From an uncultured Candidatus Saccharibacteria bacterium (lineage in GTDB: Bacteria > Patescibacteriota > Minisyncoccia > Phycocordibacterales > PALSA-1337), in assembly GCA_964403205.1 (NCBI GenBank), contig CAYOER010000002.1, positions 4,259-68,258 on the forward strand: a DNA stretch of 64,000 nucleotides, given 5' to 3'. The translations under genes and the position numbers were made by a program. Below are positions 21,521 to 47,442 of this stretch, piece by piece. The first letter of the stretch is position 1. Each line of letters opens with the position of its first letter. The notes under the pieces were generated by a model. It was not told the DNA's origin and did not search any database. It saw only the letters and a program-made list of their open reading frames with translations.

Positions 21521-21593
21521 TCCGCGATAGCTCAGTCGGTAGAGCGCCTCGCTGTTAACGAGGATGTCCCAGGTTCGAGCCCTGGTCGCGGAG
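21521..21593 (+). tRNA. tRNA-Asn (anticodon GTT), CCA not encoded
   Basis: Cloverleaf: acceptor TCCGCGA/TCGCGGA, D-arm GCTC-AGTCGGTA-GAGC, anticodon arm CCTCG-CTGTTAA-CGAGG, T-arm CCAGG-TTCGAGC-CCTGG, discriminator G. Confidence 0.85.
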
Positions 21594-23288
21594 CAAGGTA
21601 GGACGCACATACTCAAAAACCTCGTTTCGACTTGATAAATCTTCAATTTTTTCAGGTTCGAACTGAGGTTTTTTGGTCTTTGCATCAATCAGTCCATTTA
21701 TAATTATTGAGTACAATTTTGTGTTGCTAACATTGAGTTTTTTCTCTTTTAAAGTTAGGTTCGAACCGATTTCCCACAAAGCTGATTTCTTCTCCTCAAC
21801 TGTTCCATTCTTGAATATTTCTGATATTCCTACGGCTAGATCGAACGCTCTGTGGCTCTCTTTAAGCCTCTGTGGGTCGATATTGTTCATACTTTGTAGT
21901 TCCTTTCGAATAGTCTCTATTTCACTCCCTATAACCGATTTAGAGCTTATAAATTCACTATCATTGAGTAATCCTCGAGTTTTCATAAACACTAATTCTT
22001 GATACTCTTTTTCTTTCTGAGTAAGTAATTTTTCGACTGATACTTTCTTGTCAGATTCATTATTTTTTTCTGATGTATCCAATTGATATAGGTTTTCTAT
22101 ACACCAATCACTTAGTGATTTTGATATTTTTAAATTATTTTGAAAATACGATGATAGATAACCATCTATATATGATTCTTGTACACAACCCTCTGGACAA
22201 TCTGGATGTGCTCTTTTTGTGCAGTGATAGTAGATATAGTGTAGATATAATGGGTCTTTCATATCACCTATTTTTATTTCACATTTTGGACAATTTGTTT
22301 TATTTGAATATGAGAATTTGTGCTTACAGTTTGAGCAGATGAGCTGATGCTTATGTTCTGCAGTTACCGAACCTCCACATGTTCCACATTTAGTCTTTCC
22401 AGTATAGGCAAAAGTCATTATGTTTTTATATGGTCTTGGTCTACCACGAACACCAAGTATTTTTTGATTATCCCAGTATAATTCCTCGGATATTATTCTT
22501 GGAACACTATCATTGAGTTTATGTCGTTCACCATCCTTTGTAATAAAAAAGCCAGCATATATAGGATTTTTTAAAATAGTATCGGTTACATATGATAATA
22601 CTAATTTCTTACCACCCTGTTTTTTATGTTGTGGCGTTCTAAGTCCCATCTTTTCATTTGCTTCTCTCATAAGTCCACGAATAGAGTATTTTCCTGTATG
22701 AAATAACTCATGCATTTGGCGAACTAAATTAAATCTTTCTTTATCGATTATCCATCCTCTACTTCCAGGTTCTGCTGACATATCATTAAGATACCCTATA
22801 GGAGCAACACCACTTGGATATCCTCTCTCAACCCTTTCTCGCATACCCCTTTTTGTATCTGTACTCAAATCTCTTATGTATTGATTTGCCATACCAAGTT
22901 CTACTGCCATAACTATCACATTATCTTCAGGATAATAACTTCTACCAAATGTATGAATATGTTTAATTAATCTTTGTTGTAACATCCAACTTACAGTTCC
23001 TCCATCTACAGGATTACGAGCAAGTCTGTTTAGTTTCCAAACAAGAAGTCCCTCGGCTTCACCTTTGTTTATTCTTTCAACCATCTCTGTAAATATCGGT
23101 CTGCCAGGTGCCTTTGCGGATTGTGATTCTTCAAAAATCTTAATAACCTCAAGTCCATTTTCTTTTGCGAAATCACCTAATTCTCTTTTTTGTGCATCAA
23201 TTGACTGTACTTGCCTATCCTCAGTATCGCTCGAGCGACGGCAATACATAAAATACTTTATTTTTTCTTGTTTTGATTCCTTATACAT
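21555..23288 (-). CDS. Large serine recombinase (integrase) of the integrated element; its 3' end overlaps tRNA-Asn by 39 nt
   Basis: N-terminal resolvase catalytic domain (YCRRSSDTEDRQVQSIDAQ, nucleophilic Ser), recombinase domain, zinc-ribbon (CGTCGGS...CSNCKHK...CPKCE) and a coiled-coil tail. Confidence 0.85.
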   Translation of the reverse strand: MYKESKQEKIKYFMYCRRSSDTEDRQVQSIDAQKRELGDFAKENGLEVIKIFEESQSAKAPGRPIFTEMVERINKGEAEGLLVWKLNRLARNPVDGGTVSWMLQQRLIKHIHTFGRSYYPEDNVIVMAVELGMANQYIRDLSTDTKRGMRERVERGYPSGVAPIGYLNDMSAEPGSRGWIIDKERFNLVRQMHELFHTGKYSIRGLMREANEKMGLRTPQHKKQGGKKLVLSYVTDTILKNPIYAGFFITKDGERHKLNDSVPRIISEELYWDNQKILGVRGRPRPYKNIMTFAYTGKTKCGTCGGSVTAEHKHQLICSNCKHKFSYSNKTNCPKCEIKIGDMKDPLYLHYIYYHCTKRAHPDCPEGCVQESYIDGYLSSYFQNNLKISKSLSDWCIENLYQLDTSEKNNESDKKVSVEKLLTQKEKEYQELVFMKTRGLLNDSEFISSKSVIGSEIETIRKELQSMNNIDPQRLKESHRAFDLAVGISEIFKNGTVEEKKSALWEIGSNLTLKEKKLNVSNTKLYSIIINGLIDAKTKKPQFEPEKIEDLSSRNEVFEYVRPTLLRDQGSNLGHPR

Positions 23289-23376
23289 ATAATAATATTA
23301 TTTGCTTATAATCCTTAAACAACACAGTACCGCTAGGTTCTAACAAGTCCACCCCTAGTTGTCCCCAGCTAGAAAA

Positions 23377-24927
23377 TCAAAAATCACCCTCTAAAGTTTT
23401 CTTTAAATCAGTAAGGTAACTTTCAACGATTCCACCCATTTGTGGTTCTATTTTTTCCACATCAACCATTAAATCATTTAGAAAAGTCTCTATAGAAAAT
23501 GTGATGTCATGCTCTTTATAAATTATTGGTTCTATTTTATCCACCATACGATAAAAGTCGTTATTTAATAATTTAATGATTTGCTTGAGAGCATTTGTCT
23601 TTTCACTTATTTTATAAGTTAAATCAATTTCATATGTCTTAGATAATCTTTTAAAGATTTCTTCATATCCTAGTAAGATGGCGTATTCTTTTAATAATCT
23701 ATGTTGATTAATGTATATAGACACATTACTTATTAACTTAAAATCATCAACTTGTTTTTTATAGTCCACGACAAATTTCTTATCATTTTCTAAATAATAT
23801 AAACTTTCACCTGTTATTATTTTTCTTGTTTCCTTAAATTTAAATATATCTCTTGTTTTATTCTCAACTTTTAGCTTTCCCAAATCAATCAATTCCTGAA
23901 TCATTATTATTGCTTCTGCTTTAGCATTAAGCCATTTTATAAAGATTTCATCATGTGGCAATTTTGTATCAGCACCATTACAAGTTTCTTTATTTTTACT
24001 ATTATATAAGGGTATATAATCCTCAGTAAAAAGACCATCATCAAGCCATGTAAGTATAGTATTTTTTAATAATTCACATATATCAATTACATTTTCCTCT
24101 GCATACTTCTTAATTTTTTCTATTAGAATTTCATTTGAATCATTTGTTTCATTTCCTATGTATATTTTATTATTGTCTGCCCACTTTTTAACTACTTCTA
24201 ATATTGGCAAATCAGCATAATATTGATAAAGATTCCACTCTTCACTTGCTAATCCATTCTCCTTGAATACAGTATGATATTTATTACGAAGTGACTCGAT
24301 TATTAAATTAGTAATCTTTTCCTTATCTTCTATATCTAACTTTTTCTTATTATTAAATATAGACGCAATAGATTCTTCTTGATCAAGATATTGTCTTTCA
24401 GTTTCTGCATCTGGATACAATGTTAAAATATCCTTTTTAATGTCGTCGCTTAAACTTTCAAACGCATATCTATAGATAACCTGCTCAAATTCAAGACCAC
24501 TATTTTGAAGGAGGATATTTAATGCATTATTATCATCTATTTTAAGACCAAGACCATGAAGACGTTTAAAATATTCACTATTTTTTTTGTAATTTGACCA
24601 TTCAATAAAATCTACAAGTCTACTTATTTGCGTATATGAGATAACGGCATGTAAATATATTGTCTGTGCATCAAGTATCGCAAATCCAGCTAATCTCCAT
24701 CCGTCATTAAAACGATTATATTCTCTTGCTTCACTATTTTCCTTTGGTCTCCAACCATCACTTATTGCATGTCTATCTGCCTTAGTTAAGATTCCCTTGC
24801 CAGTTTTATCCTCTTCTATATAACTATGTACTAATAGTAATACTCTATCCTTAGGGGTTAAGTTTCCATTTTGTAATGATGTTATAAGTTTTTTCATGCT
24901 ATCTTTTCTTTTTAAGAAACTGCTCAA
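23377..24927 (-). CDS. Hypothetical protein (516 aa), element cargo, no recognisable motifs
   Basis: Long uninterrupted ORF only. Confidence 0.3.
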   Translation of the reverse strand: MSSFLKRKDSMKKLITSLQNGNLTPKDRVLLLVHSYIEEDKTGKGILTKADRHAISDGWRPKENSEAREYNRFNDGWRLAGFAILDAQTIYLHAVISYTQISRLVDFIEWSNYKKNSEYFKRLHGLGLKIDDNNALNILLQNSGLEFEQVIYRYAFESLSDDIKKDILTLYPDAETERQYLDQEESIASIFNNKKKLDIEDKEKITNLIIESLRNKYHTVFKENGLASEEWNLYQYYADLPILEVVKKWADNNKIYIGNETNDSNEILIEKIKKYAEENVIDICELLKNTILTWLDDGLFTEDYIPLYNSKNKETCNGADTKLPHDEIFIKWLNAKAEAIIMIQELIDLGKLKVENKTRDIFKFKETRKIITGESLYYLENDKKFVVDYKKQVDDFKLISNVSIYINQHRLLKEYAILLGYEEIFKRLSKTYEIDLTYKISEKTNALKQIIKLLNNDFYRMVDKIEPIIYKEHDITFSIETFLNDLMVDVEKIEPQMGGIVESYLTDLKKTLEGDF

Positions 24928-25111
24928 TAAATTCGACCCTATTATTTAAATCTACAACCTCAATAACTTTTGCTAATGCTATCGCAATACGAGATACCGT
25001 CAGTGCATGTCGTAGAGTAATTTTCCTTTCTACTACATCTCTCATAGTTTGAGATAGAAGTTCAGCGGTTTCTTCTATACTTATATGTTTATTTTTTTCT
25101 TGATTTTCCAT
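24899..25111 (-). CDS. Small hypothetical protein (70 aa)
   Basis: ORF only, translationally coupled. Confidence 0.2.
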   Translation of the reverse strand: MENQEKNKHISIEETAELLSQTMRDVVERKITLRHALTVSRIAIALAKVIEVVDLNNRVEFIEQFLKKKR

Positions 25112-25119
25112 ATTTTTAA

Positions 25120-25509
25120 TTACATACCTTCAACAATCTCATACCAAGCTTTCACTTCTGATGCCTTGCCATCCTTTATTATTGTCTTATAAAGTGCCAT
25201 GAGTACATTTGGAGTAAGTTTGCGTGACCAAGTATTTAATCTATGTATTAATCCATCTTTTTCCAATTTCCTATTCCAATCTGTAAGAGTTGCTAAGTCC
25301 TTTATATCAAATCTTTTAGCAAACTCTGTCTGCGTTTTAATTCCAAGTAGACTTATGGCAAGTTCATCATCTATTCCAAACTTCTCTAGTACTTGTCTTG
25401 GTTGACCACGAAGAACTGAGGGGATAGCTTTCCACATAGCATAGGATTCAAAATCTTGTGTTTTATAGACCCCTTGATTTTTGGCATTTTTTGGCATTTC
25501 AACAATCAT
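25120..25509 (-). CDS. Hypothetical protein (129 aa)
   Basis: ORF in an operonic array with the methyltransferase genes. Confidence 0.25.
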   Translation of the reverse strand: MIVEMPKNAKNQGVYKTQDFESYAMWKAIPSVLRGQPRQVLEKFGIDDELAISLLGIKTQTEFAKRFDIKDLATLTDWNRKLEKDGLIHRLNTWSRKLTPNVLMALYKTIIKDGKASEVKAWYEIVEGM

Positions 25510-26261
25510 ATTTTTTCAGCTTTTTTACCTATGAGTTTTTCTAATCTAATGATTGAAGTTGAGATATATGATGGTTCAAGATCAATCCCTATACATCTTC
25601 GACCTAGATGCTCTGATGCAATACATGTACTACCAGAACCTATAAAAGGATCGTATATGTATTCTCCAATCTTGGTTGAGTTTGGTATTAGCTTTCTTAA
25701 TAATCCTATTGGCTTTTGGGTAGGATGCAGTTTGGATTTTACTGGTTTAGGATGAAATATTACACTCTTTGCTTTACTCCTTTCCATTTTATGTCTGCCA
25801 TACCATCCATACGCTATAAGCTCGAACATTGGTAAATAATCCTTTCTACCTAATACAACATGATTTTTCAGCCAGATAATCATTTGACTATAGTAATAAC
25901 CTGCATCTTTCATTCCTACTCGTAATGCTGGGTACATCATGTCTCCATTAAATATATAGCAAGCATTGTATGATTCTAGATGAGGTATCGCTACTTCTAA
26001 CCATGTCTTAGTAAATAGAGAATATTCATTATCACTTTGAAGCTGGTCTCCAATAATCACCTTATCCGTATCAATACCAAGCTTATTGAAATTTCTTTTA
26101 CCCTCAACATATGCAACCCCATAGGGAGGATCTGAGATAATTGCTCTAATTCTTTTATCACCTATAACTTTACTCACAAACTCTTGATTGAGTGAATCCC
26201 CACATGCGATCACGTGTTCACCCAATCTGTATATATCTCCTTGTTGAATATTCATTTTCAT
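25506..26261 (-). CDS. Beta-class N6-adenine/N4-cytosine DNA methyltransferase (orphan)
   Basis: Motif IV IISDPPYGV precedes motif I DPFIGSGSTCIA. Confidence 0.7.
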   Translation of the reverse strand: MKMNIQQGDIYRLGEHVIACGDSLNQEFVSKVIGDKRIRAIISDPPYGVAYVEGKRNFNKLGIDTDKVIIGDQLQSDNEYSLFTKTWLEVAIPHLESYNACYIFNGDMMYPALRVGMKDAGYYYSQMIIWLKNHVVLGRKDYLPMFELIAYGWYGRHKMERSKAKSVIFHPKPVKSKLHPTQKPIGLLRKLIPNSTKIGEYIYDPFIGSGSTCIASEHLGRRCIGIDLEPSYISTSIIRLEKLIGKKAEKI

Positions 26262-27562
26262 AATAGTTTTGCTTTTTTATTTGTAAATTTTTCCCAACGG
26301 TCCAAGCATACAGTTGCGAAAATTAAATCCTGTTCTACTCCTCTCCATTTTCTATTAAGTTGTTCACAGGCTATCAGGTCACTTCCACCTCCAGCAAACC
26401 CACTAAATACAATCTGTCCGGGGGCACTGCATCTCTTCAAGGGCTTTTCGTTTAAGGTAACTGGCTTTTGTGTCGGATGATTATAGTCTTGAGCATTATC
26501 TCTTTTTTCTAGCCATATATTTATTATGTCTATTATTTCCTCATGTACTTGATTGCCACTACCTATTTCCTTATTTAATAATTCATTTGAATTCGTAATA
26601 TTTTTATTCAATAATGGCTTACCAATAGTTCCATATACGCATGGTTCGTATGCTTTATTGAATGCCACCTGTGGAGTCATATTGAAATTATTCTTTATCC
26701 ATAAACATACTCTTTTACTATCGATTTCATTTTGACGGAACAGTGTCTGTATAAGCCAGATGTATCGTTCATCACACCAGTAGAATACATGTGCATTAGG
26801 TTTTGCGATTGATAATGTTGCTTTAATACTCAAATCTATAAATAGAGCATAAACACCATCCTTTTTTGAATCTTTCTTTCCAGTATATGAACCTTCATAT
26901 TTTCCAGATGTACTTATACCTTTTGAATAATCAAGACCAATATTATATGGAGGATCACAATAGATAAGATCTGCAAGATCAGACCCCATAAGTCTCTGTA
27001 CCTGTTCTGATACGGTAGAGTCTCCTACTAAAAGTTTATGGTCTCCCATTTGCCATATTTCCCCAGGCTTCACTCTAGCTACTTTAGTCTCCTTTACGGC
27101 CCTTTCAATATCAAAATCATCATCTATAACATCCACATCATCGAACAGAGCTTGTAAATCCTCGTCGCCAAAGCCGACCTCGAGAAGTAAGTCCATGTCT
27201 AATTCTTTCAACATTTCTTCATTCCAGCTTCCAGTATTTTTATTTAATCGTAAATTTAATGTTTTTTCTTCTTTTTCATTCAATTCTCGACTTGGTATCA
27301 TTACATTGATTTCCTCAATTCCTAAGTCTGCATATATTTTCACACGCTGATGTCCACCAATCAGAATATTCTCTCGTGTTCCTGTATTCAGAACAACAGG
27401 TACCACAGTGCCGAACTCCTTTATTGAATCCTCGAGGTCTCGTCTCTCATTTTCAGTCATTTTTCGAGGGTTATATTCTGCTCCAAGTAAGTCTCTAACC
27501 TTACGCTTGGCATTTGTCCATATTAGTGCTTCTTTTATTGTATTTGTATTGTTTTTTGTCAT
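26258..27562 (-). CDS. ParB-like nuclease domain fused to a beta-class DNA methyltransferase
   Basis: N-terminal ParB/Srx-like segment (VVPVVLNTGTRENILIGGHQRVKI). LIYCDPPYNIGLDY (motif IV) and FSGFAGGGSDLIACEQL (motif I). Confidence 0.7.
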   Translation of the reverse strand: MTKNNTNTIKEALIWTNAKRKVRDLLGAEYNPRKMTENERRDLEDSIKEFGTVVPVVLNTGTRENILIGGHQRVKIYADLGIEEINVMIPSRELNEKEEKTLNLRLNKNTGSWNEEMLKELDMDLLLEVGFGDEDLQALFDDVDVIDDDFDIERAVKETKVARVKPGEIWQMGDHKLLVGDSTVSEQVQRLMGSDLADLIYCDPPYNIGLDYSKGISTSGKYEGSYTGKKDSKKDGVYALFIDLSIKATLSIAKPNAHVFYWCDERYIWLIQTLFRQNEIDSKRVCLWIKNNFNMTPQVAFNKAYEPCVYGTIGKPLLNKNITNSNELLNKEIGSGNQVHEEIIDIINIWLEKRDNAQDYNHPTQKPVTLNEKPLKRCSAPGQIVFSGFAGGGSDLIACEQLNRKWRGVEQDLIFATVCLDRWEKFTNKKAKLL

Positions 27563-29678: not shown

Positions 29679-29679
29679 A

Positions 29680-40410: not shown

Positions 40411-40515
40411 TACCCACAAATTGGTTGCATCTTTTAGATTCTAATTGCACTGGAATTTTGAAGATGTAACCAATGTCTGGTTGCACACAAACAACAAATT
40501 AGGAGAACAAACAAA

Positions 40516-41241: not shown

Positions 41242-42579
41242 TTAACCGATGACTTTTTTGTCTCTAGCACATGCACCATGAGAGGTATATTTTACCTTTG
41301 ATCCAGTGCTTTCCTGAATGAGTCTATAGAGTTGGTCTTCAGTTGAGACCGATTTGATTTCAGGAATAGTTACATTCTCGAGCATTGTGGTTAGTTTCGA
41401 TTGATAGTCCAGATCACGTTTGTAATTTGGAATGAGACGACCAAAGGGTAGACCATCATGAAGATATTGATCAACATAGGGCAGAACTTTTCGATGTTGC
41501 AATATGTCAACATGTGTAACAGCTATTGAGTCAAGTCCTCCATGAGCACGCGTACATTCAGCAGCGTATTTTAGAAGGACTAGATCCAGTGCTCCTGAAC
41601 GAAAGCCGCCTTGCCAATCGTTCAATGTATTGTGTTCCTTAAGGCTCACTCCATACATCCCTACATCTTCAGTTGGAAATGGACCTGAACCATGCCTGGT
41701 CGTATAAGATCGTGTAATGCCTACTGTCTCAACTTCCCCATCAAAACAACATTCCCTGAGCAAGGAACGCGCATTTTCTGTCACGATCCTACTCCATGTC
41801 GTATATGGATGAAAACCCTGCCACTCATCCAGAAGAACTCCTTGTGCTCCCTCAAATACAGGTTTTGAAGATTGAACAAGATCTGCCACTTTCTTTTCGT
41901 TCAGAAATTGGTAATGCTTTGCCATAGATCTGTAGGCATCGACCAATTGATCAAGTTTTTCCGGACTGAAGATATTCAGTGACAATGCAATTGTTCTCGG
42001 GAGTTTTTCACCGAAATCTAATCCCAGCTCCGCAAGTTCATTGCGTTTCCTTTCAGAAATTACTTCGAGCATTGCTTTGAGTTTCCCTGCATTTGTAAGA
42101 TCAATTGCTTTGATGACTTCATCAGGATGATTGACAATATCAAACATTGTCTCACCAATTCCCTTTCCACATGAACCGTGTTTTTTTCCTCCTCGCATCC
42201 ACTCCCTTGCTTGATTTGTTGCAACATGGAATGGCGTAATAACTGGTGCACGTTCATCAATAAAATGACGATCCAGAGCGAAATGCTTGAGTTTAGGTGA
42301 CAAGCATGACGTCTCATGGGCCAGAGCTATCGGGTCCCAGAGCATGTATCTCGAAATAAGGGTTTTGACAAATGGAATGAATGTCCCGCTACCGAACTGT
42401 GAGAAGGTATGATGTAGCCCTTCATCAGTCACTACATTATGCGCTGCTTGAGATCCGCCATTATAACGTACTACAAGATCAGCATTACCGTGACGACAGA
42501 GGAAATCTGTCATAGTTCCCTTACCTTCATCACCAAAACCGAGTCCAACGATAATTCGAGCTTTTTTTGTGTTTTTCAT
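41242..42579 (-). CDS. Adenylosuccinate synthetase (PurA)-family protein, divergent in its substrate loops
   Basis: GLGFGDEGKGTMTDFL (P-loop GDEGKGK), GGSQAAHN (GGHNAGHT), SCGKGIGE (TTGRGIGP), FEGAQGVLLD (FEGAQGTLLD), HGSGPFPTE (VGAGPFPTE), THVDIL (TKLDVLD). The Asp-binding TTGRRRRTGW loop is replaced by QGGFRSG, and C-terminal STGP becomes SHGA. Confidence 0.7.
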   Translation of the reverse strand: MKNTKKARIIVGLGFGDEGKGTMTDFLCRHGNADLVVRYNGGSQAAHNVVTDEGLHHTFSQFGSGTFIPFVKTLISRYMLWDPIALAHETSCLSPKLKHFALDRHFIDERAPVITPFHVATNQAREWMRGGKKHGSCGKGIGETMFDIVNHPDEVIKAIDLTNAGKLKAMLEVISERKRNELAELGLDFGEKLPRTIALSLNIFSPEKLDQLVDAYRSMAKHYQFLNEKKVADLVQSSKPVFEGAQGVLLDEWQGFHPYTTWSRIVTENARSLLRECCFDGEVETVGITRSYTTRHGSGPFPTEDVGMYGVSLKEHNTLNDWQGGFRSGALDLVLLKYAAECTRAHGGLDSIAVTHVDILQHRKVLPYVDQYLHDGLPFGRLIPNYKRDLDYQSKLTTMLENVTIPEIKSVSTEDQLYRLIQESTGSKVKYTSHGACARDKKVIG

Positions 42580-42637
42580 AAAAAGAACCTAGCTACCTCT
42601 AGCTAGGTTCTACACTAAAACCTAATTTTTGTCAAGC

Positions 42638-43690
42638 TTAGTGTGTTGTGCGCTTTCTTCCTTTGCGACTGCCTGAGGATGTTGCGAGTGCGCCACCGGA
42701 AACTTTTCCGGCAACAATCGCTCCACGAGCAACAGGAACAAGTGCTTGTGTCGCAATCAGTGCAGCGGATACACCGCGGATTCCTTTGGACTTCAAAACA
42801 TCAGCCAAGTCATCCTCAGTTTCTCCTGCGAGCCGACCGATAGCAGCCGCCATGGTTGGAACAATGTCCGATGTTTCAGGAACCTCCAGAACGTACTCAG
42901 GATTTTCTCCTGCGTCCGACAGAAGTTTCTGCCACATTTTCTTGATGGACTTGTTCGTGCCATGATTGGTATGTCCAGGTCGAATAACGAAAACGTGATA
43001 CCGTTCGCACGTTTTCCGCACAGACTCGAGCATGGGAATTTCTGACTGAATTCTGTCCCCAAAGACTTCTTTGGCCAGTGCAGGGGTAGTCCCGTGTACT
43101 GCGGGATCTCCACTGTCGTAGAAAGGCTGTTCGTCCTCAATGAGGAAAAAGTAACCCTTTGCGCCGTCACGCTCGAATGATTCGATACGTGTATGATTGG
43201 CGGCAGCATAGAATGCAAGATGATATGCTTCGCCATTGTTTCCACCACCATTACCGGGGATGATCATTTCATTGAGTGCTGTGAGCAACTCTTTGGAGCC
43301 AATTTCAAACTGACTCATTTGGAATGCTGCATCCGGTGGGGTGGCGCGTTCATCGTCGAACATCATGAACATCACATTAGGGTGATCAGAGATCCCCTTT
43401 TCTGTGATCATGTCGATAAGTTTTGGTAACTGCTTTTGCATGTCGTGTGGAACATGCTCCATCGAACCAGTTCCGTCGAGGGCGACAATGATCGGTGTCG
43501 CATCGTTGAAACCGGGAGCGAAGCATGATTCCCTCATCCCGTTCTTGAGCTTGCGTGGGTCGAGGATATCGGCAATATTCCGAACGCCTGTCGACACAGC
43601 AGTCGCTGAACGACTGAAGGTTGAACCAGAACTTGCGAGCCCTCTTACGCCAGCATCGAAGTCCATTGAACTGAAGCCTGAATGTCCCAT
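42638..43690 (-). CDS. von Willebrand factor type A (vWA) domain protein with a C-terminal Ala/Gly-rich basic tail
   Basis: MIDAS motif IIVALDGTGSM. Rossmann-like alternation following it. The probable true start is MGHSGF at 43690. Confidence 0.6.
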   Translation of the reverse strand: MGHSGFSSMDFDAGVRGLASSGSTFSRSATAVSTGVRNIADILDPRKLKNGMRESCFAPGFNDATPIIVALDGTGSMEHVPHDMQKQLPKLIDMITEKGISDHPNVMFMMFDDERATPPDAAFQMSQFEIGSKELLTALNEMIIPGNGGGNNGEAYHLAFYAAANHTRIESFERDGAKGYFFLIEDEQPFYDSGDPAVHGTTPALAKEVFGDRIQSEIPMLESVRKTCERYHVFVIRPGHTNHGTNKSIKKMWQKLLSDAGENPEYVLEVPETSDIVPTMAAAIGRLAGETEDDLADVLKSKGIRGVSAALIATQALVPVARGAIVAGKVSGGALATSSGSRKGRKRTTH

Positions 43691-43720
43691 AGTGATTTTT
43701 TTCTCTTTGTGCCAAACCAC

Positions 43721-43876
43721 TTAGAGTTTGGCTGTTTTTGTTTCTTCCACCTGCTCAACAACAGGTTGAACAGATACGCCGGTTTCTGCGGTTTGTGTCT
43801 CTTTCTTGGTCTCATCCAATGTTTGTGCAACTTTGGAAGGACTTTCCGCCTCTGTCTCATCCACTGGTTTTCCCAT
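43721..43876 (-). CDS. Small acidic protein (51 aa) between the kinase-like and vWA genes
   Basis: Minus-strand MGKPVDETEAESPSKVAQTLDETKKETQTAETGVSVQPVVEQVEETKTAKL. Its stop abuts the vWA ORF. Confidence 0.25.
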   Translation of the reverse strand: MGKPVDETEAESPSKVAQTLDETKKETQTAETGVSVQPVVEQVEETKTAKL

Positions 43877-43907
43877 GATGTATCTTTCTTGTTTTGTTTG
43901 TTGTGGT

Positions 43908-45104
43908 TTAGGTCATTACAAGTTCGACAAATCTCTTTGGGCCGAAAACGGCTTTGGTTATCTGTCGAAATTCTGTGTAAACAGCATCAGCTGTCTGCGG
44001 TCTTCGAACACTTTTTGGTTGAAGACATCTATTGAGCAATTCCCTGATTGGCATTTCAACCGAGTCAGGAATGACTTTTTCTTCGGAACTTCCACCAAGT
44101 ATGTAAACCATGCACCACGCTGACATGTATATGTCAGACGCAGGAGATGGTAACATACTCGTGGATTTTAATTCCTCTGGAAAATAAGCTTGATACCTGT
44201 CATCAGTATAAGGAACTTTCTCACCACTACTTATCTTGCAAGAAGCAGTCCAATCTAGGATCTGTCCAAGATGGTCTTTTGCATGGATGAGAATATGATT
44301 TGGAGTAAGTGCACTGTGCACCACTCCCGAATAGTGAGCGAGGGTCAATCCCTCAAGAACTCTATTCCAAATAAATGTCATGTGTCGAGTAGACACACCA
44401 GAAGGATACGTCTTACGGATTTCCTCTAGTGTATACCACCCTTTATCAAAGCCTGGTTGTATGAGAAAAATATTTACTGTCTTTTTCCCAGAACCGTCAT
44501 CAATTCGAACTGACTCATGAAGTTCCGGCATGCGTAGTAAAAACTTACGTGCAGTTTCCTGACCAGCTGGATTGCTAGCCAAGGATTTTGCCTTCTTTCT
44601 GAAAAGGTCAAATGCTCGTGCCTCCCGCTCCATAAGGTCATTATCCTTGATTGAATGCGGTACCTTGAACAGTGCAGATGAAACAACAGATTTCTTGTCC
44701 TGAATAGTTCCCCTGAAAACACCGCATGTCCCACCGGAATAAATCCGATTGCCGACAGTATAGACATATTTGGGAGAACTAAACTGCACCAAGGCAGGAT
44801 CTTCAGTGGGCTTCGGTGACAATTCTGCTTTCTTGTCCCCGTATATTCCACCTTTGATTTTATCTTGGGCAGTATGCCAAAAAACGTTGAGAAGTCTCTG
44901 GGCCTCAGTTGTGTCCGCCACATCTTTGGGATTACCCATAAGACGGACCTTGTGTATGCACTTTGCCAGCCTACGGAACACTTTCTGGACTGCATGATAG
45001 ACCTTGTCAGAACTACCCTTTTCCAGTCCAAAAATATCTTCTGGATGATTCGCCTTCTTAAGGGCTTCGAGAAGTCTTTGTAATTCAGTCATAATTCCTT
45101 TCAA
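43908..45104 (-). CDS. Protein kinase-like (Ser/Thr kinase fold) protein with an atypical catalytic loop; possible pseudokinase
   Basis: Gly-rich loop SGGTCGVF. Beta3 Lys in SALFKVP. Catalytic-loop equivalent VVHSALTPNHILIH (HRD changed to HSA). ILDWTAS (DFG-like). YFPEE (APE-like). SDIYMSAWCMVYIL (subdomain IX). Confidence 0.5.
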   Translation of the reverse strand: MKGIMTELQRLLEALKKANHPEDIFGLEKGSSDKVYHAVQKVFRRLAKCIHKVRLMGNPKDVADTTEAQRLLNVFWHTAQDKIKGGIYGDKKAELSPKPTEDPALVQFSSPKYVYTVGNRIYSGGTCGVFRGTIQDKKSVVSSALFKVPHSIKDNDLMEREARAFDLFRKKAKSLASNPAGQETARKFLLRMPELHESVRIDDGSGKKTVNIFLIQPGFDKGWYTLEEIRKTYPSGVSTRHMTFIWNRVLEGLTLAHYSGVVHSALTPNHILIHAKDHLGQILDWTASCKISSGEKVPYTDDRYQAYFPEELKSTSMLPSPASDIYMSAWCMVYILGGSSEEKVIPDSVEMPIRELLNRCLQPKSVRRPQTADAVYTEFRQITKAVFGPKRFVELVMT

Positions 45105-45317
45105 AGATCATTGTGTTTAATTACTATAAATCACATTACATTAAAAAATACTTTTGTCAAGCAGTTCGTAATGCAAGGTAAAAATGAAACCAAACTAATC
45201 TAATTACAGTATATAATTAACTCGTATATAGTGTCAATAGTACAATATTACAAAAAACATAATAAATGGCATGTCAATATTTCCCAGACACACCAGTAGG
45301 AATAGTTCCTAAGAAAA

Positions 45318-45962
45318 TCACTTTATAAATGAATATAGAACTGCTGGTCGCATAATCCCCTGCTTCTTTGTTTTGTTTGTATTGATAAGTATACCTTCAG
45401 ACAAAATTTTCTTTCTAAAATTTCTTTTATCAAATTTTTGCTTTAATACTATTTCGTAGATAGTTTGAAGTTCAGTTAATGTAAATTCCTTTTGCAGTAG
45501 ATATTTTGCAATTGAAGTATAAATTATTTTTGATCGCAAGCGGTCAATTGCTGTTGTAAGTATTCTATTATGATCATATCCTAATATAGGTAATTCATCT
45601 ATTGTGCACCACCTTGTTTTAATTTGAGTATTTGTAATTTTACGAGGATCATCTGCAGCAAGAGCTAGATATGCAACTGATACTATTCTTCCCCGAGGAT
45701 CGCGATCTATTTCACTAAAAGTATATAATTGTTCTTTATAAATCTTACGAATTCCAGCCTTATCTTTCAATAGTCTTTCTGCAGCAATTTCTGCTGTCTC
45801 TGTTGGTAAAATAAGTCCACCAATAAGGGCCCACATACCTTTATATTGATTTGAAGAAATTACCTTACCAATGAGGACTGAGAGATTTCCATCAATAATT
45901 CTTAAACAGACAATATCTGTTGCAAGAACTGCATAGCGAATATTATTATCTGTTTTTGACAT
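45318..45962 (-). CDS. NrtR-like regulator: degenerate Nudix domain plus C-terminal winged-helix (start taken at MSKTDNN)
   Basis: GGLILPTETAEIAAERLLKDKAGI (degenerate Nudix box). The C-terminal FTLTELQTIYEIVLKQKFDKRNFRKKI resembles the NrtR DNA-binding domain. Confidence 0.45.
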   Translation of the reverse strand: MSKTDNNIRYAVLATDIVCLRIIDGNLSVLIGKVISSNQYKGMWALIGGLILPTETAEIAAERLLKDKAGIRKIYKEQLYTFSEIDRDPRGRIVSVAYLALAADDPRKITNTQIKTRWCTIDELPILGYDHNRILTTAIDRLRSKIIYTSIAKYLLQKEFTLTELQTIYEIVLKQKFDKRNFRKKILSEGILINTNKTKKQGIMRPAVLYSFIK

Positions 45963-46091
45963 TGTGTATAATATACACGATATATAACAAAAGTAAAGAT
46001 TTAATAGCACACGCCTACTTTGTTGCAATTAGAATGCTAATTCACTGCGAGCAAGTTGACAACTACTATTTTATATGATAGTTTTAAATTA

Positions 46092-46110
46092 GCATAGTTT
46101 TTTGATATTT
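46092..46110 (+). promoter_or_regulatory. Conserved promoter module (copy 2): gcatagttttttgatattt
   Basis: See 40392..40410. Confidence 0.35.
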
Positions 46111-46195
46111 CCTCTTGTTTGACCGTATCTTTTAGATCTTTTACGAGTTTTGAAAGATGCGGTTATAACGAACAACACTCAATTCAAAAGAGAAT

Positions 46196-46531
46196 ATGCC
46201 AACACAAATAACTGAAATCATCCCCGCAGGTAAGAAACGTTTAATTAACACCTTAACCGAAGCAGGTCTGACAACACTGGAAGCTTGTGCGCAAGCTGGA
46301 CCAGAAAAACTCCTAAAGTATAGGGGTTTGGGACACAAAACCTTGATTGCACTGAAAGAGCACTGCTTCAAACGCGGTATCAAATGGTCAGATAGCCATT
46401 CAAGGATTCACAAGCTGTCCATCCACTTCATGAGCCGTTACAAGCTAAGTCCCAAAGATGCAAAACTGGTAGCAACTGCATTTTACTGGGATAACGCATA
46501 TCCGACTTCCCTCCTTCATCCCATGTTTTAA
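46196..46531 (+). CDS. Small helix-hairpin-helix-like protein (111 aa)
   Basis: GKKRLINTLTEAGLTTLEACAQAGPEKLLKYRGLGHKTLIALKEH is an HhH-like pattern. Followed by the conserved terminator module. Confidence 0.3.
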   Translation: MPTQITEIIPAGKKRLINTLTEAGLTTLEACAQAGPEKLLKYRGLGHKTLIALKEHCFKRGIKWSDSHSRIHKLSIHFMSRYKLSPKDAKLVATAFYWDNAYPTSLLHPMF

Positions 46532-46546
46532 GAGACTGGAACAATC

Positions 46547-46598
46547 CCCGCCCGAACAGGAGAAACCCTCCGTTCGCTGGCGGGTTTTTCTTTTTTCT
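46547..46598 (+). terminator. Conserved terminator module, copy 1 of 6 (ccccgcccgaacaggagaaaccctccgttcgctggcgggtttttctttttt)
   Basis: Stem cccgcccgaac/gttcg(ct)ggcggg with a 2-nt bulge, followed by a T-run. The core tcgctggcgggttttt recurs at 47352-47408, 47954-48001, 52835-52884, 53465-53518 and 54229-54265. Confidence 0.6.
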
Positions 46599-46613
46599 TA
46601 ATCCTATAACCAA

Positions 46614-46629
46614 GCCCTGGTCGCGGAGC
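46614..46629 (+). repeat. Direct repeat of the tRNA-Asn 3' end (gccctggtcgcggagc); att-like junction 1
   Basis: 16/16 identical to 21580-21595. Embedded in the 35-bp unit ttcttaatcctataaccaagccctggtcgcggagc, which recurs at 47046-47079 and 47406-47442. Confidence 0.7.
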
Positions 46630-46710
46630 TTGATAAGAAAAAGTATTCTTTAGGGTGTCTTCTTTCTTATCACTATTTCTATATTTGACAATCTCTCTGA
46701 AGATAGTACG

Positions 46711-46971
46711 ATGATTCCAGATCACCACAAACCTGAAAGAATTCTTATGATAACTGAAGTAAGCAAAAGAACACTCAGAGGATACAGACAGACATGTCGT
46801 GTCAAAATCAAGATCAGCAACAAAATTGAGATCGCACGCTTGATATTCGCTCATCAACAATCTGGGGGACTGAATAATGTACCTATTGGGGATAGAGTGT
46901 ATCTCGAACCATTGGGATGGTTCAATACTGATGATGTCGAACTACTCGAAGTTCTGACTTGGGATGATTGA
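46711..46971 (+). CDS. Small hypothetical protein (86 aa)
   Basis: ORF only. TTGACA-containing promoter-like sequence upstream. Confidence 0.2.
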   Translation: MIPDHHKPERILMITEVSKRTLRGYRQTCRVKIKISNKIEIARLIFAHQQSGGLNNVPIGDRVYLEPLGWFNTDDVELLEVLTWDD

Positions 46972-47064
46972 GTCAAGACCATGAATTATCAGTAATCTCT
47001 ATTTAAGCACATAGCGCACGACCCTCGGGTACGGCGTTTTCTTTTTTCTAAATTCCGTGACCAT

Positions 47065-47079
47065 GCCCTGGTTGTAGAC
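47065..47079 (+). repeat. Degenerate copy of the tRNA-Asn 3'-end repeat (gccctggttgtagac); att-like junction 2
   Basis: Same 35-bp context (ttctaaattccgtgaccatgccctgg...) but the last 7 nt diverge. Confidence 0.45.
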
Positions 47080-47166
47080 TGAATTGACACTCCTTAATCA
47101 ATGTGTTAGTTTATTTATAGAACCAGATGAGAATCTGACAACTGTTCCAAACAAAAAAAATTAACC

Positions 47167-47337
47167 ATGAACGCAACTACGATTCCTGAAGATGTAACAA
47201 ACACGCCTGCAGGTCCAAATAATAACGGATTCATTGTGCTCGACATATTCGCTTCATCCATTGTTGGATCAGACGGCGAATGCTATACGCGTAAAAACGG
47301 AATAGTGACCATCGCCTCCGAAGAAGACGAACACTAA
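47167..47337 (+). CDS. Small hypothetical protein (56 aa)
   Basis: MNATTIPEDVTNTPAGPNNNGFIVLDIFASSIVGSDGECYTRKNGIVTIASEEDEH. Followed by terminator module copy 2. Confidence 0.2.
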   Translation: MNATTIPEDVTNTPAGPNNNGFIVLDIFASSIVGSDGECYTRKNGIVTIASEEDEH

Positions 47338-47351
47338 TGGATTCAATCACA

Positions 47352-47408
47352 CCCGCCCGAACACGAGAGCCCTAGGGCTTTCAGTTCGCTGGCGGGTTTT
47401 TCTTTTTC
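47352..47408 (+). terminator. Conserved terminator module, copy 2
   Basis: cccgcccgaacacgagagccctagggctttcagttcgctggcgggtttttctttttct. Confidence 0.55.
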
Positions 47409-47425
47409 TAAATTCTATAACCAAT

Positions 47426-47442
47426 CCCTGGTCGCGGAGCAA
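47426..47442 (+). repeat. Direct repeat of the tRNA-Asn 3' end (ccctggtcgcggagcaa); att-like junction 3
   Basis: 17/17 identical to 21582-21598. Confidence 0.7.

What the first reader, a model, noticed from the sequence alone, without database searches (positions are those of the whole stretch)
21521..47442. Integrative element of about 25-26 kb at tRNA-Asn with a large serine recombinase; tRNA 3' end repeated three more times (tandem att-like junctions)
The recombinase gene ends inside the tRNA (21555-21593). The 16-17-nt tRNA 3' terminus gccctggtcgcggagc(aa) recurs at 46614, 47426 and, degenerate, at 47065. Each copy sits in a shared 35-bp context absent from the tRNA itself. This fits an integrated element, or successive insertions leaving nested attR-like sites, carrying replication (primase/AAA_25, iterons), FtsK-like, methyltransferase and R-M functions. 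Serine-recombinase elements targeting a tRNA 3' end are less common than tyrosine-integrase ones.
Basis: seen in the sequence. Interest (0 to 1): 0.7.

Follow-up and report, generated by a model that had tools for sequence, protein, structure and literature searches.

The report
Serine-integrase island at tRNA-Asn
A groundwater CPR bacterium carries a mobile element inserted in the 3' end of its tRNA-Asn gene by a large serine recombinase, an enzyme type long said not to use tRNA genes, and dozens of relatives of this enzyme sit against tRNA genes in the same way.

Summary
tRNA-Asn(GTT) lies at 21521-21594. A 577-aa large serine recombinase (LSR) gene on the opposite strand ends inside it. The tRNA 3' end recurs at 46614 (16/16), 47425 (15/16) and 47065 (11/16).

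At least 56 of 80 genomic loci encoding relatives of this LSR have a tRNA gene, 3' end to 3' end, against the recombinase gene. The closest relatives use Asn; more distant ones use ten other tRNAs. Three relatives show 19-22-nt tRNA repeats flanking 9-10 kb elements. The last conserved LSR codons (LLR, reverse strand of 21588-21596) encode the replacement tRNA 3' end.

Corrections:
- A fourth, degenerate junction at 40328-40408 splits the "25 kb" into an 18.8-kb LSR backbone and a 6.3-kb GC-rich module.
- The hairpin in the "shared context" is a generic terminator, also present four times further right.
- Foreign-looking composition runs to about 54.3 kb.
- No iterons and no phage genes were found.

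No excised form or clean empty site was seen. The crossover point and the attR in current use are unknown. The literature I could search reports almost no LSR use of tRNA genes.

The parts
21521..21594 (+). tRNA-Asn(GTT), the integration target. It is intact, and by inference its last roughly 9 nt are now supplied by the element.
   Evidence: ARAGORN; Rfam tRNA, 69.7 bits.
21578..21596 (+). attL core, AGCCCTGGTCGCGGAGCAA: the direct-repeat copy that lies inside and just after the tRNA.
   Evidence: (family D4).
21555..23288 (-). Large serine recombinase, 577 aa. The predicted nucleophile is Ser19. Codons TTG CTC CGC (LLR) are the reverse strand of GCGGAGCAA at 21588-21596. The last 10 codons read into host tRNA sequence.
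   Evidence: Pfam; more than 2000 homologues; invariant Y15/R17/S19 and 8 Cys; AF2 model and Foldseek hits to full-length serine integrases; junction comparison.
23377..25509 (-). Conserved backbone genes of unknown function: a 516-aa protein, a 70-aa protein and a 129-aa MarR-like wHTH protein. The small ones are candidate regulators or directionality factors (inference).
   Evidence: 52-88% amino-acid identity to the same-order genes in L003; weak MarR hit; no PHROG hit.
25506..27562 (-). Two N6/N4 DNA methyltransferases, the second fused to a ParB N-terminal domain.
   Evidence: Pfam; 85-86% identity to L003.
27651..29678 (-). Replication protein of 675 aa: AAA_25 helicase-type ATPase. The homologue in L003 also carries a Prim-Pol domain.
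   Evidence: Pfam; PHROG primase/helicase families; L003 precomputed domains.
31467..31612 (.). Conserved non-coding element of about 145 nt. It is shared at 82-86% nucleotide identity with elements whose recombinases are only 36-72% identical. It may be a structured RNA or a cis site (origin or transfer site).
   Evidence: blastn; RNAalifold with a few compensatory pairs; fold z = -2.2 on the + strand. No Rfam hit.
33145..34188 (-). FtsK/SpoIIIE-like DNA translocase with a gamma domain, 347 aa.
   Evidence: Pfam.
34574..38666 (-). Type III restriction-modification pair: res (766 aa) and mod (600 aa).
   Evidence: Pfam; PADLOC MTase_III 285 bits and REase_III 57 bits; the pair recurs in other LSR loci.
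38650..38770 (-). LOOT RNA (Rfam RF03000), immediately 5' of the mod gene.
   Evidence: Rfam 84.4 bits, E 4e-14; also found in 7 of 13 other LSR elements scanned.
40328..40408 (+). J0, a degenerate fourth junction: TTCTAACC, then 12 unrelated nt, then CGGAGCAA (40348-40355), then a TTGACA promoter and a flank homologous to the flank of J3. It coincides with the GC and strand switch, and it may be the backbone's own attR.
   Evidence: (D13). CGGAGCAA occurs only 3 times in the window on both strands. AGTTTTTTGACAT occurs only twice, each 48-51 nt downstream of a CGGAGCAA.
40356..46613 (.). Module 2, 6.3 kb, GC 42% overall (up to 48% in 1-kb windows). It holds a 159-aa ORF, a divergent PurA-like protein, a 360-aa unknown, a kinase-like protein, a Nudix-NrtR regulator and a 111-aa orphan HhH protein.
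   Evidence: Composition; Pfam; PDB search; orphan status.
46547..46629 (+). J1: terminator hairpin, then a putative P arm (CTTAATCCTATAACCAA), then a perfect 17-nt tRNA 3' end copy (46613-46629).
46630..47033 (+). Cassette 1, about 450 bp between the J1 and J2 cores, with its own promoter-like site and an 86-aa ORF (46711-46971).
47034..47080 (+). J2, a degenerate junction. The left half of the core is intact (GCCCTGGT). The right half is changed, mostly by GC-to-AT transitions.
   Evidence: (D3).
47081..47393 (+). Cassette 2, about 360 bp between the J2 and J3 cores, with a 56-aa ORF (47167-47337) and a terminator hairpin.
   Evidence: (gene called in L210).
47394..47442 (+). J3: putative P arm (CTAAATTCTATAACCAA) and a 17-nt repeat CCCTGGTCGCGGAGCAA (47426-47442). 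It is the outermost recognisable attR. A strong promoter-like site follows at 47446.
47954..54260 (+). Right-hand region with the same terminator family (47954-47994, 52836-52886, 53468-53518, 54210-54260) and partly atypical composition. It is possibly older accreted DNA without a recognisable att scar.

Best explanation
This is a composite genomic island built at the 3' end of tRNA-Asn by large-serine-recombinase (LSR) integrative elements.

**The current element.** It starts at 21595-21597. It carries the LSR at its very edge, convergent with the tRNA, followed by a replication, methylation and type III restriction-modification backbone.

**Proposed integration mechanism.**
- In the excised circle, attP overlaps the 3' end of the LSR gene (inferred).
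- The LSR pairs attP with the T-stem/acceptor-stem part of the tRNA gene and exchanges strands inside the shared 17-nt core (inferred; the crossover dinucleotide was not determined).
- The tRNA is rebuilt with an element-borne 3' end, GCGGAGCAA, which on the other strand is the conserved LLR codons of the LSR (shown).
- The displaced original 3' end is left at the far side as attR (shown as repeats).

**How the array arose.** Repeated integration at the occupied site, followed by loss of the recombinase end of older elements, left an array of att scars (inferred):
- J0 at 40348.
- Then a 6.3-kb GC-rich module.
- J1 at 46614.
- Then a 450-bp cassette.
- J2 at 47065.
- Then a 360-bp cassette.
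- J3 at 47425.

**The unit that moves today.** If anything still moves, it would be 18.8 kb (attL x J0), 25.0 kb (x J1) or 25.8 kb (x J3).

**After excision.** The primase-helicase would replicate the circle. The FtsK-like translocase would serve transfer or segregation. Both are inferred from domain content only.
For: **The enzyme is an LSR.**
- Pfam Resolvase and Recombinase domains.
- Invariant Y15/R17/S19 and eight invariant Cys.
- An AF2 model (pLDDT 80) with a zinc-ribbon region and a long coiled coil. It matches full-length serine-integrase-att complexes, Bxb1, PhiC31 and LI integrase.

**Relatives abut tRNA genes.**
- Homologues at 70-72% identity (L002-L008) all end in or next to tRNA-Asn.
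- Of 80 genomic loci, 52 have a tRNA on the opposite strand within -32 to +141 nt of the end of the LSR match. The types are 21 Asn, 10 His, 4 Trp, 4 Gln, 3 Gly, 2 each of Ile, Ser, Tyr and Asp, and 1 each of Leu and Lys.
- Four more have a tRNA-Asn split by a group I intron.
- About six more have contigs that end or are masked inside a tRNA-like sequence.
- 24 of 119 metagenomic tRNA-Asn loci carry an LSR homologue beside the tRNA.

**tRNA repeats flank elements in relatives.**
- L060 (tRNA-Tyr): 22 nt, about 8.9 kb.
- L088 (tRNA-His): 19 nt, about 10.3 kb.
- L133 (tRNA-Asn): 19 nt with one mismatch, 8.76 kb.

**The junction is conserved.** The sequence ...GTCC(A/T)ACC|TTGCTCCG... and the C-terminal motif NEVF..V.PTLLR recur across relatives.

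**The backbone is shared and the element is not fixed.**
- The backbone is shared with L003 at 52-88% amino-acid identity.
- L199, a related species with the same left flank, lacks the LSR.

**Tandem arrays occur elsewhere.** In L133 the distal repeat is followed by what aligns to the extreme C-terminus of a second LSR (weak score).

**J0 is supported by three motif coincidences** in the same order and spacing as at J3. It also coincides with the compositional break.

**No rival integrase or phage genes.** No tyrosine integrase, capsid or terminase genes were found among the ORFs scanned.
Against: **No evidence of current mobility.**
- No excised circle (attP) and no clean empty attB were found.
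- All strain-level contigs from other samples are colinear and nearly identical across J0-J3.

**The att geometry is unresolved.**
- Reconstructed attP sites show no significant dyad symmetry: 10-12 of 22 against a null of 10.3 +/- 1.1. The crossover position is therefore not established.
- Each module begins with a promoter-like TTGACA or TTGATA 0-5 nt after the core. None begins with a recombinase remnant. Simple "integration then decay" does not predict that.

**Other ambiguities.**
- The terminator next to the P arm also occurs outside the array.
- Other, non-LSR left contexts precede copies of the same 15-nt core in many metagenomic contigs. The scars J1-J3 need not all come from LSR elements.
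- The evidence for a second LSR in L133 is weak (6.8 bits).
Confidence: 0.75

Rival explanations
1. The LSR element proper is only the 18.8-kb low-GC backbone (21597-40355). Its attR is J0, which shares just 8 nt (CGGAGCAA) with attL, a short overlap as in many serine integrases. Module 2 and the J1-J3 cassettes are older, unrelated residents of the site.
For: - J0 has the same layout and spacing as J3 (TTCTA..ACC, 12 nt, CGGAGCAA, promoter).
- It sits exactly at the GC and strand break.
- The backbone's trinucleotide signature resembles the host (r 0.82-0.87). Module 2 does not (r 0.30-0.34).
- Identity stops abruptly at the left edge of CGGAGCAA and the mismatches are mostly transversions. 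That looks like a recombination junction, not decay.
- Only the right half of the core has to be element-borne to rebuild the tRNA.
Against: - Relatives with mapped ends have 19-22-nt repeats, not 8 nt.
- J0 is not preceded by the terminator hairpin.
- Backbone and module 2 are linked in every strain contig seen.
- The flank to the right of J0 is homologous to the flank of J3, which a simple attR does not explain.
Confidence: 0.35
2. J1-J3 are scars of other element families, for example tyrosine-integrase islands that cross over between the T and acceptor stems and used the same tRNA-Asn site. The LSR element merely landed next to them.
For: - 16-17-nt repeats at this position in a tRNA are typical of one class of tyrosine integrases (general knowledge; sublocation discussed in PMC7192596).
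- Many metagenomic tRNA-Asn loci have a second copy of the same 15-nt core 120-400 nt downstream, with several different left contexts and no LSR.
- About 19 loci show a distinct 45-nt att type.
- The dyad test gives no support for an LSR-type attP.
Against: - No tyrosine integrase was found among the ORFs scanned from 13.7 to 63.8 kb.
- LSR elements in relatives are themselves flanked by repeats of the same length class (L060, L088, L133).
- The P arms of J0, J1 and J3 share TTCTA/TCCTA..ACC at a fixed distance from the core end. J0 sits at the far end of the LSR backbone, where its attR would be expected.
Confidence: 0.15
3. The repeats are a generic terminator or REP-like element with no link to integration.
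For: The hairpin CCCGCCCGAACA..GTTCGCTGGCGGGTTTTT recurs at 47954, 52836, 53468 and 54210, downstream of + strand genes.
Against: - Those four copies lack the P arm and the tRNA 3' end.
- The tRNA-derived 16-mer occurs only at attL and J1-J3, against 0.01 expected.
- The LSR-tRNA association is family-wide.
Confidence: 0.03

Closest known systems
Serine-integrase prophages and elements (Bxb1, PhiC31, A118/LI integrase, SPbeta SprA, TnpX)
   Same: - Same enzyme architecture: catalytic domain, recombinase domain, zinc ribbon and coiled coil.
- The element is bounded by att sites.
- The integrase gene sits at the element edge.
   Different: - Those integrate within or between protein-coding genes, often disrupting them, and many have overlaps of only a few bp.
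- Here the target is the 3' end of a tRNA gene, which is restored.
- The shared core is 17-22 nt.
- The att site overlaps the last codons of the integrase gene.
Tyrosine-integrase tRNA islands (Islander/TIGER-type genomic islands; AICEs such as pSAM2, SLP1, pMEA300)
   Same: - An intact tRNA plus a displaced 3' fragment as direct repeat.
- The integrase lies next to the tRNA.
- Tandem arrays form at tRNA hot-spots.
- As in AICEs, there is a replication gene and an FtsK-like translocase, and no type IV secretion system was seen.
   Different: - The recombinase is a serine, not a tyrosine, enzyme.
[quoted passage not shown]
- PMC7192596 found only 14 of 297 candidate cases and asked for proof.
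- No Xis, relaxase, Spd or Pif equivalents were identified.
SCCmec / Ccr and composite SCC arrays
   Same: - An LSR integrates at the 3' end of a conserved RNA-related gene without inactivating it (from my own knowledge of SCCmec).
- Direct repeats are about 15-18 bp.
- Tandem composite islands contain several att copies and recombinase-less pseudo-elements.
   Different: - The target is rlmH (orfX), a protein-coding gene.
- The Ccr genes lie inside the element, not across the att site.
- The host range is staphylococci, and there is no replication module.
CIMEs and ICE-CIME accretion (ICESt1/ICESt3 of Streptococcus thermophilus)
   Same: Short, non-autonomous segments flanked by att sites lie in tandem with an autonomous element at the same target (concept from my own knowledge; tandem location noted in PMC5704250).
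   Different: - That system uses a tyrosine integrase at the fda locus.
- Here mobilisation in cis is untested.
- The modules start with promoter-like sequences, not element left ends.
phiRSM small serine recombinase
   Same: A serine-family recombinase that acts as a site-specific integrase (cited in PMC7192596). From my own knowledge, its site is in a tRNA-Ser gene.
   Different: It is a small resolvase-type enzyme without the recombinase, zinc-ribbon and coiled-coil domains, carried by a filamentous phage.

Membership tests
Large serine recombinase (serine integrase) | N-terminal resolvase-type catalytic domain with a serine nucleophile. | tested here: met
   Pfam PF00239, E 1.1e-18. The motif YCRRS, with Y15/R17/S19 invariant in 35 homologues. 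It aligns to the YCRVS motif of 3g13.
Large serine recombinase (serine integrase) | Recombinase domain, zinc-ribbon domain and embedded coiled coil C-terminal to helix E. | tested here: met
   PF07508 at 24.5 bits, above its 21.1 cut-off. Eight invariant Cys. The AF2 model has beta strands at 299-356 and helices 390-467. Foldseek aligns about 570 columns to the 9dxd/9y66 serine integrase complexes, Bxb1 9iu2, PhiC31 9rah and LI 4kis.
Large serine recombinase (serine integrase) | Catalyses attP x attB recombination with a 2-bp staggered crossover; excision needs a directionality factor. | not testable with these tools
   No attP or attB junction sequences were found. The dyad test was not significant. 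No directionality factor was identified.
tRNA-gene integrative island (Islander signature) | An intact tRNA gene plus a displaced 3' fragment in direct orientation, bracketing foreign DNA with an integrase gene. | tested here: met
   The integrase is a serine enzyme, not the tyrosine type that Islander requires.
tRNA-gene integrative island (Islander signature) | Sporadic occurrence, with an empty site in relatives. | tested here: inconclusive
   L199, a related species, has no LSR at its tRNA-Asn, but its downstream DNA (an IS3-like element) is not comparable with the window's right flank. Same-strain contigs all carry the island.
Prophage | Capsid, portal, terminase or tail genes. | tested here: not met
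   No structural PHROG hits in 10 unknown ORFs. Pfam gives none. IMG/VR holds only two distant LSR relatives.
ICE / AICE (conjugative element) | Transfer machinery: a type IV secretion system with relaxase, or a TraB-type FtsK translocase with a clt site. | tested here: inconclusive
   An FtsK/SpoIIIE-plus-gamma protein of 347 aa is present. No relaxase or type IV secretion domains were found among the ORFs scanned. Several ORFs have no hits. No repeats of the clt type were found.
CIME-like att-flanked remnants / tandem accretion | Non-autonomous segments bounded by att copies, in tandem with an autonomous element. | tested here: met
   J0-J3 bound module 2 and two small cassettes. A probable tandem LSR pair occurs in L133. 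Mobilisation was not tested.
REP / generic terminator repeat | The same unit occurs at many loci unrelated to the putative target. | tested here: not met
   Only the hairpin recurs elsewhere. The P arm plus tRNA core is confined to J1-J3.

The most novel reading that the evidence does not exclude
A large, mostly CPR/Patescibacteria clade of large serine recombinases has specialised on tRNA gene 3' ends. It has switched among at least eleven tRNA identities.

Its attP overlaps the integrase's own last codons. The C-terminal residues (LLR for tRNA-Asn) are therefore dictated by the acceptor stem of the target tRNA, and the integrase tail changes between the integrated and excised states.

If confirmed, this overturns the working rule that tRNA genes are targets of tyrosine integrases only. 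It would also supply a family of serine integrases whose natural attB sites are conserved tRNA sequences.
Probability: 0.5. Interest if true: 0.7.

Novelty: new variant of a known kind. Interest (0 to 1): 0.6.

Why it matters
**A working rule is challenged.** Serine integrases are the main tools for inserting large DNA. Their natural targets were thought to exclude tRNA genes (PMC4383910). Fourteen unproven exceptions were reported in PMC7192596.

**Scale of the evidence here.** I found at least 56 independent LSR-tRNA junctions covering eleven tRNA types. That makes the question testable.
- It offers matched sets of integrase, attP and tRNA-attB for specificity studies.
- It offers candidate integration tools for CPR bacteria, which have no genetic system.

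**Annotation.** Island finders that require a tyrosine integrase at tRNA genes will miss these elements.

**Biology of the host.** The array at this locus shows how a reduced genome acquires restriction-modification and metabolic cargo.

Tried and rejected
**Searches for an excised form or an empty site**
- Looking up the LSR as an exact protein failed. It is nevertheless in the database as P0001.
- A single-protein scan of IMG/VR found nothing. The alignment scan found only two distant relatives.
- A metagenome pattern scan designed to catch attB, attL, attR and attP at once returned mostly intact tRNA-Asn genes.
- Two attP/attL patterns found nothing in viral contigs.
- Contigs from other samples are the same strain and colinear, with no polymorphism at the junctions.

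**Searches for more distal ends and for cargo homologues**
- Distal repeats within the +/-10 kb flanks of relatives turned up in only two of 54 loci.
- The last gene before J1 (111 aa) has no homologues, so it could not lead to other right ends.

**Rejected or unsupported ideas**
- My by-eye dyad (TCCTAtaACC against GGTAGGA, 20-nt spacer) did not pass an ungapped symmetry test against shuffles. I do not claim a crossover position.
- Iterons: only weak 2-3-copy AT-rich repeats, and nothing in the intergenic regions.
- PurZ-like reading of the PurA homologue: the best solved relatives are ordinary PurA at about 100 bits, and no chain named PurZ appears in the list.
- A relic of an LSR 3' end to the right of J1 (TTGATAAG): no similarity beyond 8 nt, so rejected.
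- A decayed att near 54.3 kb: 9 of 20 matches, not significant.

Full report
**1. The observation**

The window has one tRNA gene, tRNA-Asn(GTT), at 21521-21594 on the + strand (Rfam 69.7 bits). Its 3' terminal 16 nt, GCCCTGGTCGCGGAGC, recur exactly at 46614 and with one mismatch at 47425. That is 3 matches against 0.01 expected, and no shuffle of 100 reaches 3. A degenerate copy matching 11/16 lies at 47065.

With flanking bases, the repeats shared with attL are 17 nt long. They are AGCCCTGGTCGCGGAGC at 46613 and CCCTGGTCGCGGAGCAA at 47426. The three distal copies share a 47-nt unit that the tRNA lacks (family D3).

ORF 21555-23288 on the minus strand ends 40 nt inside the tRNA. The same tandem structure appears in independent assemblies (L114/L213, L210, L211, L214).

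**2. The host and the flanks**

The sequence comes from a groundwater metagenome (ERZ909574/SRR2177952). Relatives of the recombinase are annotated as Paceibacterota, Minisyncoccia and other Patescibacteria.

- The left flank is core: MreB, an EPSP-synthase-family enzyme, PriA, a deformylase-formyltransferase fusion and a hibernation factor.
- From about 55.8 kb the right flank again looks chromosomal: a sigma factor, hydrogenase subunits and a DEAD-box helicase.
- The two outer flanks have the same trinucleotide signature (r = 0.93).

**3. The recombinase**

The 577-aa protein scores on Pfam Resolvase and Recombinase. In an alignment of 35 homologues, Y15, R17, S19 and eight cysteines are invariant.

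An AlphaFold model (pLDDT 80) shows these parts in order:
- the catalytic domain;
- a long helix E;
- a helical recombinase domain;
- a beta-rich zinc-ribbon region;
- a long coiled coil at 390-467.

Foldseek aligns about 570 columns to full-length serine integrase-att complexes, Bxb1, PhiC31 and the Listeria LI integrase. It is a large serine recombinase (LSR).

**4. The family sits on tRNA genes**

- Three homologues at 70-72% identity were located on their contigs. Two end in tRNA-Asn on the opposite strand. For the third, the contigs break inside the tRNA.
- A scan of one genome per species returned 80 loci.
- In 52 of them ARAGORN finds a tRNA on the opposite strand, within -32 to +141 nt of the end of the LSR match. 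The types are 21 Asn, 10 His, 4 Trp, 4 Gln, 3 Gly, 2 each of Ile, Ser, Tyr and Asp, and 1 each of Leu and Lys.
- Asn dominates among the closest relatives (37% identity or more). The other tRNAs appear at 33-37% identity.
- Four further loci have the tRNA-Asn 3' half followed by a group I intron (Rfam RF00028). This fits a report that such introns hide tRNA-Asn genes in Patescibacteria (PMC13011429).
- About six more loci have contigs that end or are masked inside a tRNA-like sequence.
- In the metagenome scan, 24 of 119 tRNA-Asn loci carry an LSR homologue beside the tRNA.
- About ten Bacteroidota loci show no tRNA.

This association cannot be chance.

**5. The junction**

In all close relatives the sequence reads ...GTCC(A/T)ACC|TTGCTCCG.... 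The protein ends with the conserved motif NEVF..V.PTLLR.

The codons TTG CTC CGC (LLR) are the reverse complement of GCGGAGCAA, the last bases of the tRNA plus two more. The integrase gene itself therefore carries the replacement 3' end of the tRNA.

- In this window the ORF then reads ten more codons into host tRNA sequence.
- In L002 and L006 a stop codon falls within the acceptor stem.
- Downstream of the tRNA many relatives have a hairpin followed by a T-run, lying inside the LSR coding region on the other strand. It could terminate the tRNA transcript (inference).

**6. Far ends in relatives**

The stored flanks are only 10 kb, so most far ends are out of reach. Three were found:
- L060: tRNA-Tyr, 22-nt repeat, element about 8.9 kb.
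- L088: tRNA-His, 19-nt repeat, element about 10.3 kb.
- L133: tRNA-Asn, 19-nt repeat with one mismatch, element 8.76 kb.

In L133 the sequence after the distal repeat translates, on the LSR strand, to a peptide that the family profile aligns to its last 54 positions, ending exactly at the repeat. The score is low (6.8 bits). I therefore read it only as a probable second LSR element in tandem.

**7. Anatomy of the island in the window**

*The backbone.* From 21.6 to 40.1 kb nearly all long ORFs are on the minus strand:
- the LSR;
- a 516-aa protein, a 70-aa protein and a 129-aa wHTH protein;
- two N6/N4 methylases, one fused to ParB-N;
- a 675-aa AAA_25 primase-helicase;
- an Ogg-HhH protein;
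- an FtsK-like translocase;
- a type III res-mod pair.

The same gene order, at 52-88% amino-acid identity, is seen in L003. No phage structural genes, relaxase or tyrosine integrase were found.

*A fourth junction, J0.* Its parts are:
- TTCTAACC at 40328-40335;
- twelve unrelated bases;
- CGGAGCAA at 40348-40355;
- a strong promoter-like TTGACA at 40356;
- AGTTTTTTGACAT at 40396.

J3 has the same parts in the same order and spacing. CGGAGCAA occurs only three times in the window on both strands: at attL, J0 and J3. AGTTTTTTGACAT occurs only at J0 and J3.

J0 coincides with a jump in GC from 32% to 42%, up to 48% in 1-kb windows, and with a strand switch.

*Beyond J0, in order:*
- A 6.3-kb module holding a 159-aa ORF, a divergent PurA-like protein, a 360-aa unknown, a kinase-like protein, a Nudix-NrtR regulator and an orphan HhH protein.
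- J1.
- A 450-bp cassette with an 86-aa ORF.
- J2. Its right half differs from the tRNA mostly by GC-to-AT transitions.
- A 360-bp cassette with a 56-aa ORF.
- J3.

**8. What the "shared context" is**

It has two parts.
- The hairpin CCCGCCCGAACA..GTTCGCTGGCGGGTTTTT is a terminator family. It also follows + strand genes at 47954, 52836, 53468 and 54210, with no tRNA piece.
- The 17-nt stretch CT(A/T)AAT(T/C)CTATAACCAA plus the tRNA core is confined to J1-J3. I take that stretch as the P arm (inference).

The module, the cassettes and the 52-54.3 kb region resemble each other in composition and differ from the host. Foreign-looking DNA therefore extends beyond J3.

**9. Mechanism**

Best reading (confidence 0.75): LSR elements integrate into the T-stem/acceptor part of tRNA-Asn by attP x attB recombination within the shared core.
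- attL rebuilds the tRNA with the element-borne 3' end.
- attR keeps the displaced fragment.
- Repeated integration at the occupied site, followed by decay of older elements, produced the array.

The steps that are shown:
- the enzyme class;
- its family-wide position against tRNA 3' ends;
- the repeats here and in three relatives;
- the coding/att overlap;
- absence of the LSR from a related species (L199).

The steps that are inferred:
- the strand-exchange position;
- which attR is used;
- the order of insertions;
- replication by the primase-helicase;
- any role of the FtsK-like protein in transfer.

**10. What does not fit**

- Reconstructed attP sites have no significant dyad symmetry.
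- Each module starts with a promoter-like TTGACA or TTGATA 0-5 nt after the core, not with a recombinase remnant. Natural tRNA-Asn downstream regions in other contigs look the same (L171, L207).
- The flank to the right of J0 is homologous to the flank to the right of J3.

Together these points suggest that modules begin with DNA that once lay directly downstream of a tRNA-Asn gene, perhaps captured by imprecise excision in another host. That is speculation.

No excised circle or clean empty site was found. All strain-level contigs are colinear.

**11. Comparison with what is known**

- The TIGER paper found 14 of 297 serine-integrase elements at t(m)RNA genes. It wrote that such use "has not been reported previously" and needs experimental proof (PMC7192596).
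- A review of integrative mobilisable elements describes serine-recombinase elements as having very short repeats and disrupting their targets (PMC5704250).
- Within the searchable library I found no description of a tRNA-targeting LSR clade, in CPR or elsewhere. Subscription papers are not covered.

The closest analogues by function are:
- tyrosine-integrase tRNA islands and AICEs;
- SCCmec, where an LSR acts at the 3' end of a conserved gene, with 15-18-bp repeats and composite arrays;
- ICE-CIME accretion.

**12. Verdict**

It is a new variant of a known kind: a serine-integrase element that behaves like a classical tRNA island, and one member of a large clade that does the same on many tRNAs.

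Interest is 0.6. A specialist would find the scale of the tRNA association surprising. It makes an open point, whether serine integrases can target tRNA genes, directly testable. The element class itself is familiar, and mobility here is unproven.

Noticed in passing
window 38650-38770 (-); also L002 6532-6656, L012 6357-6481, L014 7741-7856, L016 7370-7488, L019 3834-3953, L036 8015-8141, L041 6689-6809: LOOT RNA (Rfam RF03000, 58-86 bits) lies inside 8 of 14 LSR/tRNA-Asn elements scanned. In the five cases checked it is co-oriented with the gene just downstream, overlapping or lying up to about 70 nt upstream of its start. Those genes are the type III mod gene here and small membrane proteins in L002, L014, L019 and L041. 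That looks like a cis-acting 5' leader carried by this element family. I know of no assigned function.
   Followed up: partly
window 31467-31612; L003 1697-1841, L152 10654-10801, L117 1-109: A non-coding stretch of about 145 nt is conserved at 82-86% nucleotide identity between elements whose recombinases are only 36-72% identical. RNAalifold finds hairpins with a few compensatory changes. There is no Rfam family. It may be a structured RNA or a cis site such as a replication origin.
   Followed up: partly
L014 11099-11340, L019 11780-12056, L020 3034-3345, L029 11602-11807: Group I introns (RF00028) interrupt the tRNA-Asn gene right next to the LSR. ARAGORN misses these tRNAs as a result. 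The integration target and the intron share one gene.
   Followed up: partly
metagenome loci L100, L105, L107, L108, L128, L137, L141, L145, L177, L180, L191, L202, L208: Many tRNA-Asn genes are followed 120-400 nt downstream by a second exact copy of the 15-nt 3' end, with several distinct left contexts (for example gggaaaaccgtgggtttcccagaagttctg). The units between are about 170-185 nt. About 19 loci carry a separate 45-nt partial tRNA-Asn preceded by taagaaattttgggataagtg, which is probably the att site of another element family. tRNA-Asn appears to be a busy integration hot-spot in these bacteria.
   Followed up: partly
window 46547-46587, 47355-47406, 47954-47994, 52836-52886, 53468-53518, 54210-54260 (+): This is a family of GC-rich terminator hairpins with a conserved stem (CCCGCCCGAACA...GTTCGCTGGCGGG, then a T-run) and variable loops. 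They sit only after + strand genes in the GC-richer segments between 46 and 54.3 kb. Two copies are 97.6% identical over 41 nt.
   Followed up: partly
window 41242-46028 (-): A GC-rich gene cluster holds a divergent adenylosuccinate-synthetase homologue (Pfam 209 bits; best solved PurA about 100 bits), a 360-aa protein with no hits, a protein-kinase-like 398-aa protein (PADLOC MkoA and PD-T4-6 similarity) and a Nudix-NrtR regulator. Its function is unknown. It could be nucleotide metabolism or defence.
   Followed up: partly
window 21640-21660 (LSR codons for FEPE) and the equivalent position in relatives: The conserved C-terminal FEP motif of the LSR family is encoded by TTCGAACC, the complement of the tRNA T-loop consensus GGTTCGAA. 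It lies about 55 nt beyond the tRNA 3' end. It is present even in Bacteroidota members that have no adjacent tRNA. It could be coincidence or a fossil of an older tRNA junction.
   Followed up: no
window 48348-48464 and 50051-50167; strain differences at 48-49 kb and 51-52 kb: A 117-nt direct repeat (90% identical) lies upstream of two gene sets. All 61 differences between the window and a second-sample strain (L211) fall in two patches at 48-49 kb and 51-52 kb. bins the differences only by kilobase; the second bin contains most of the M10 peptidase gene (50980-51924). The rest of the 13 kb is identical.
   Followed up: no
window 19323-20672 (+): Peptide deformylase and methionyl-tRNA formyltransferase are fused in one 449-aa ORF. 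In the relative L002 they are separate genes.
   Followed up: no
L003, L004, L005 (three assemblies): Contigs carrying the 72%-identical LSR all stop at the same base, 13 nt past the stop codon and inside the tRNA. That suggests an assembly-graph branch at the integration site, possibly from mixed occupied and empty sites in the population.
   Followed up: no
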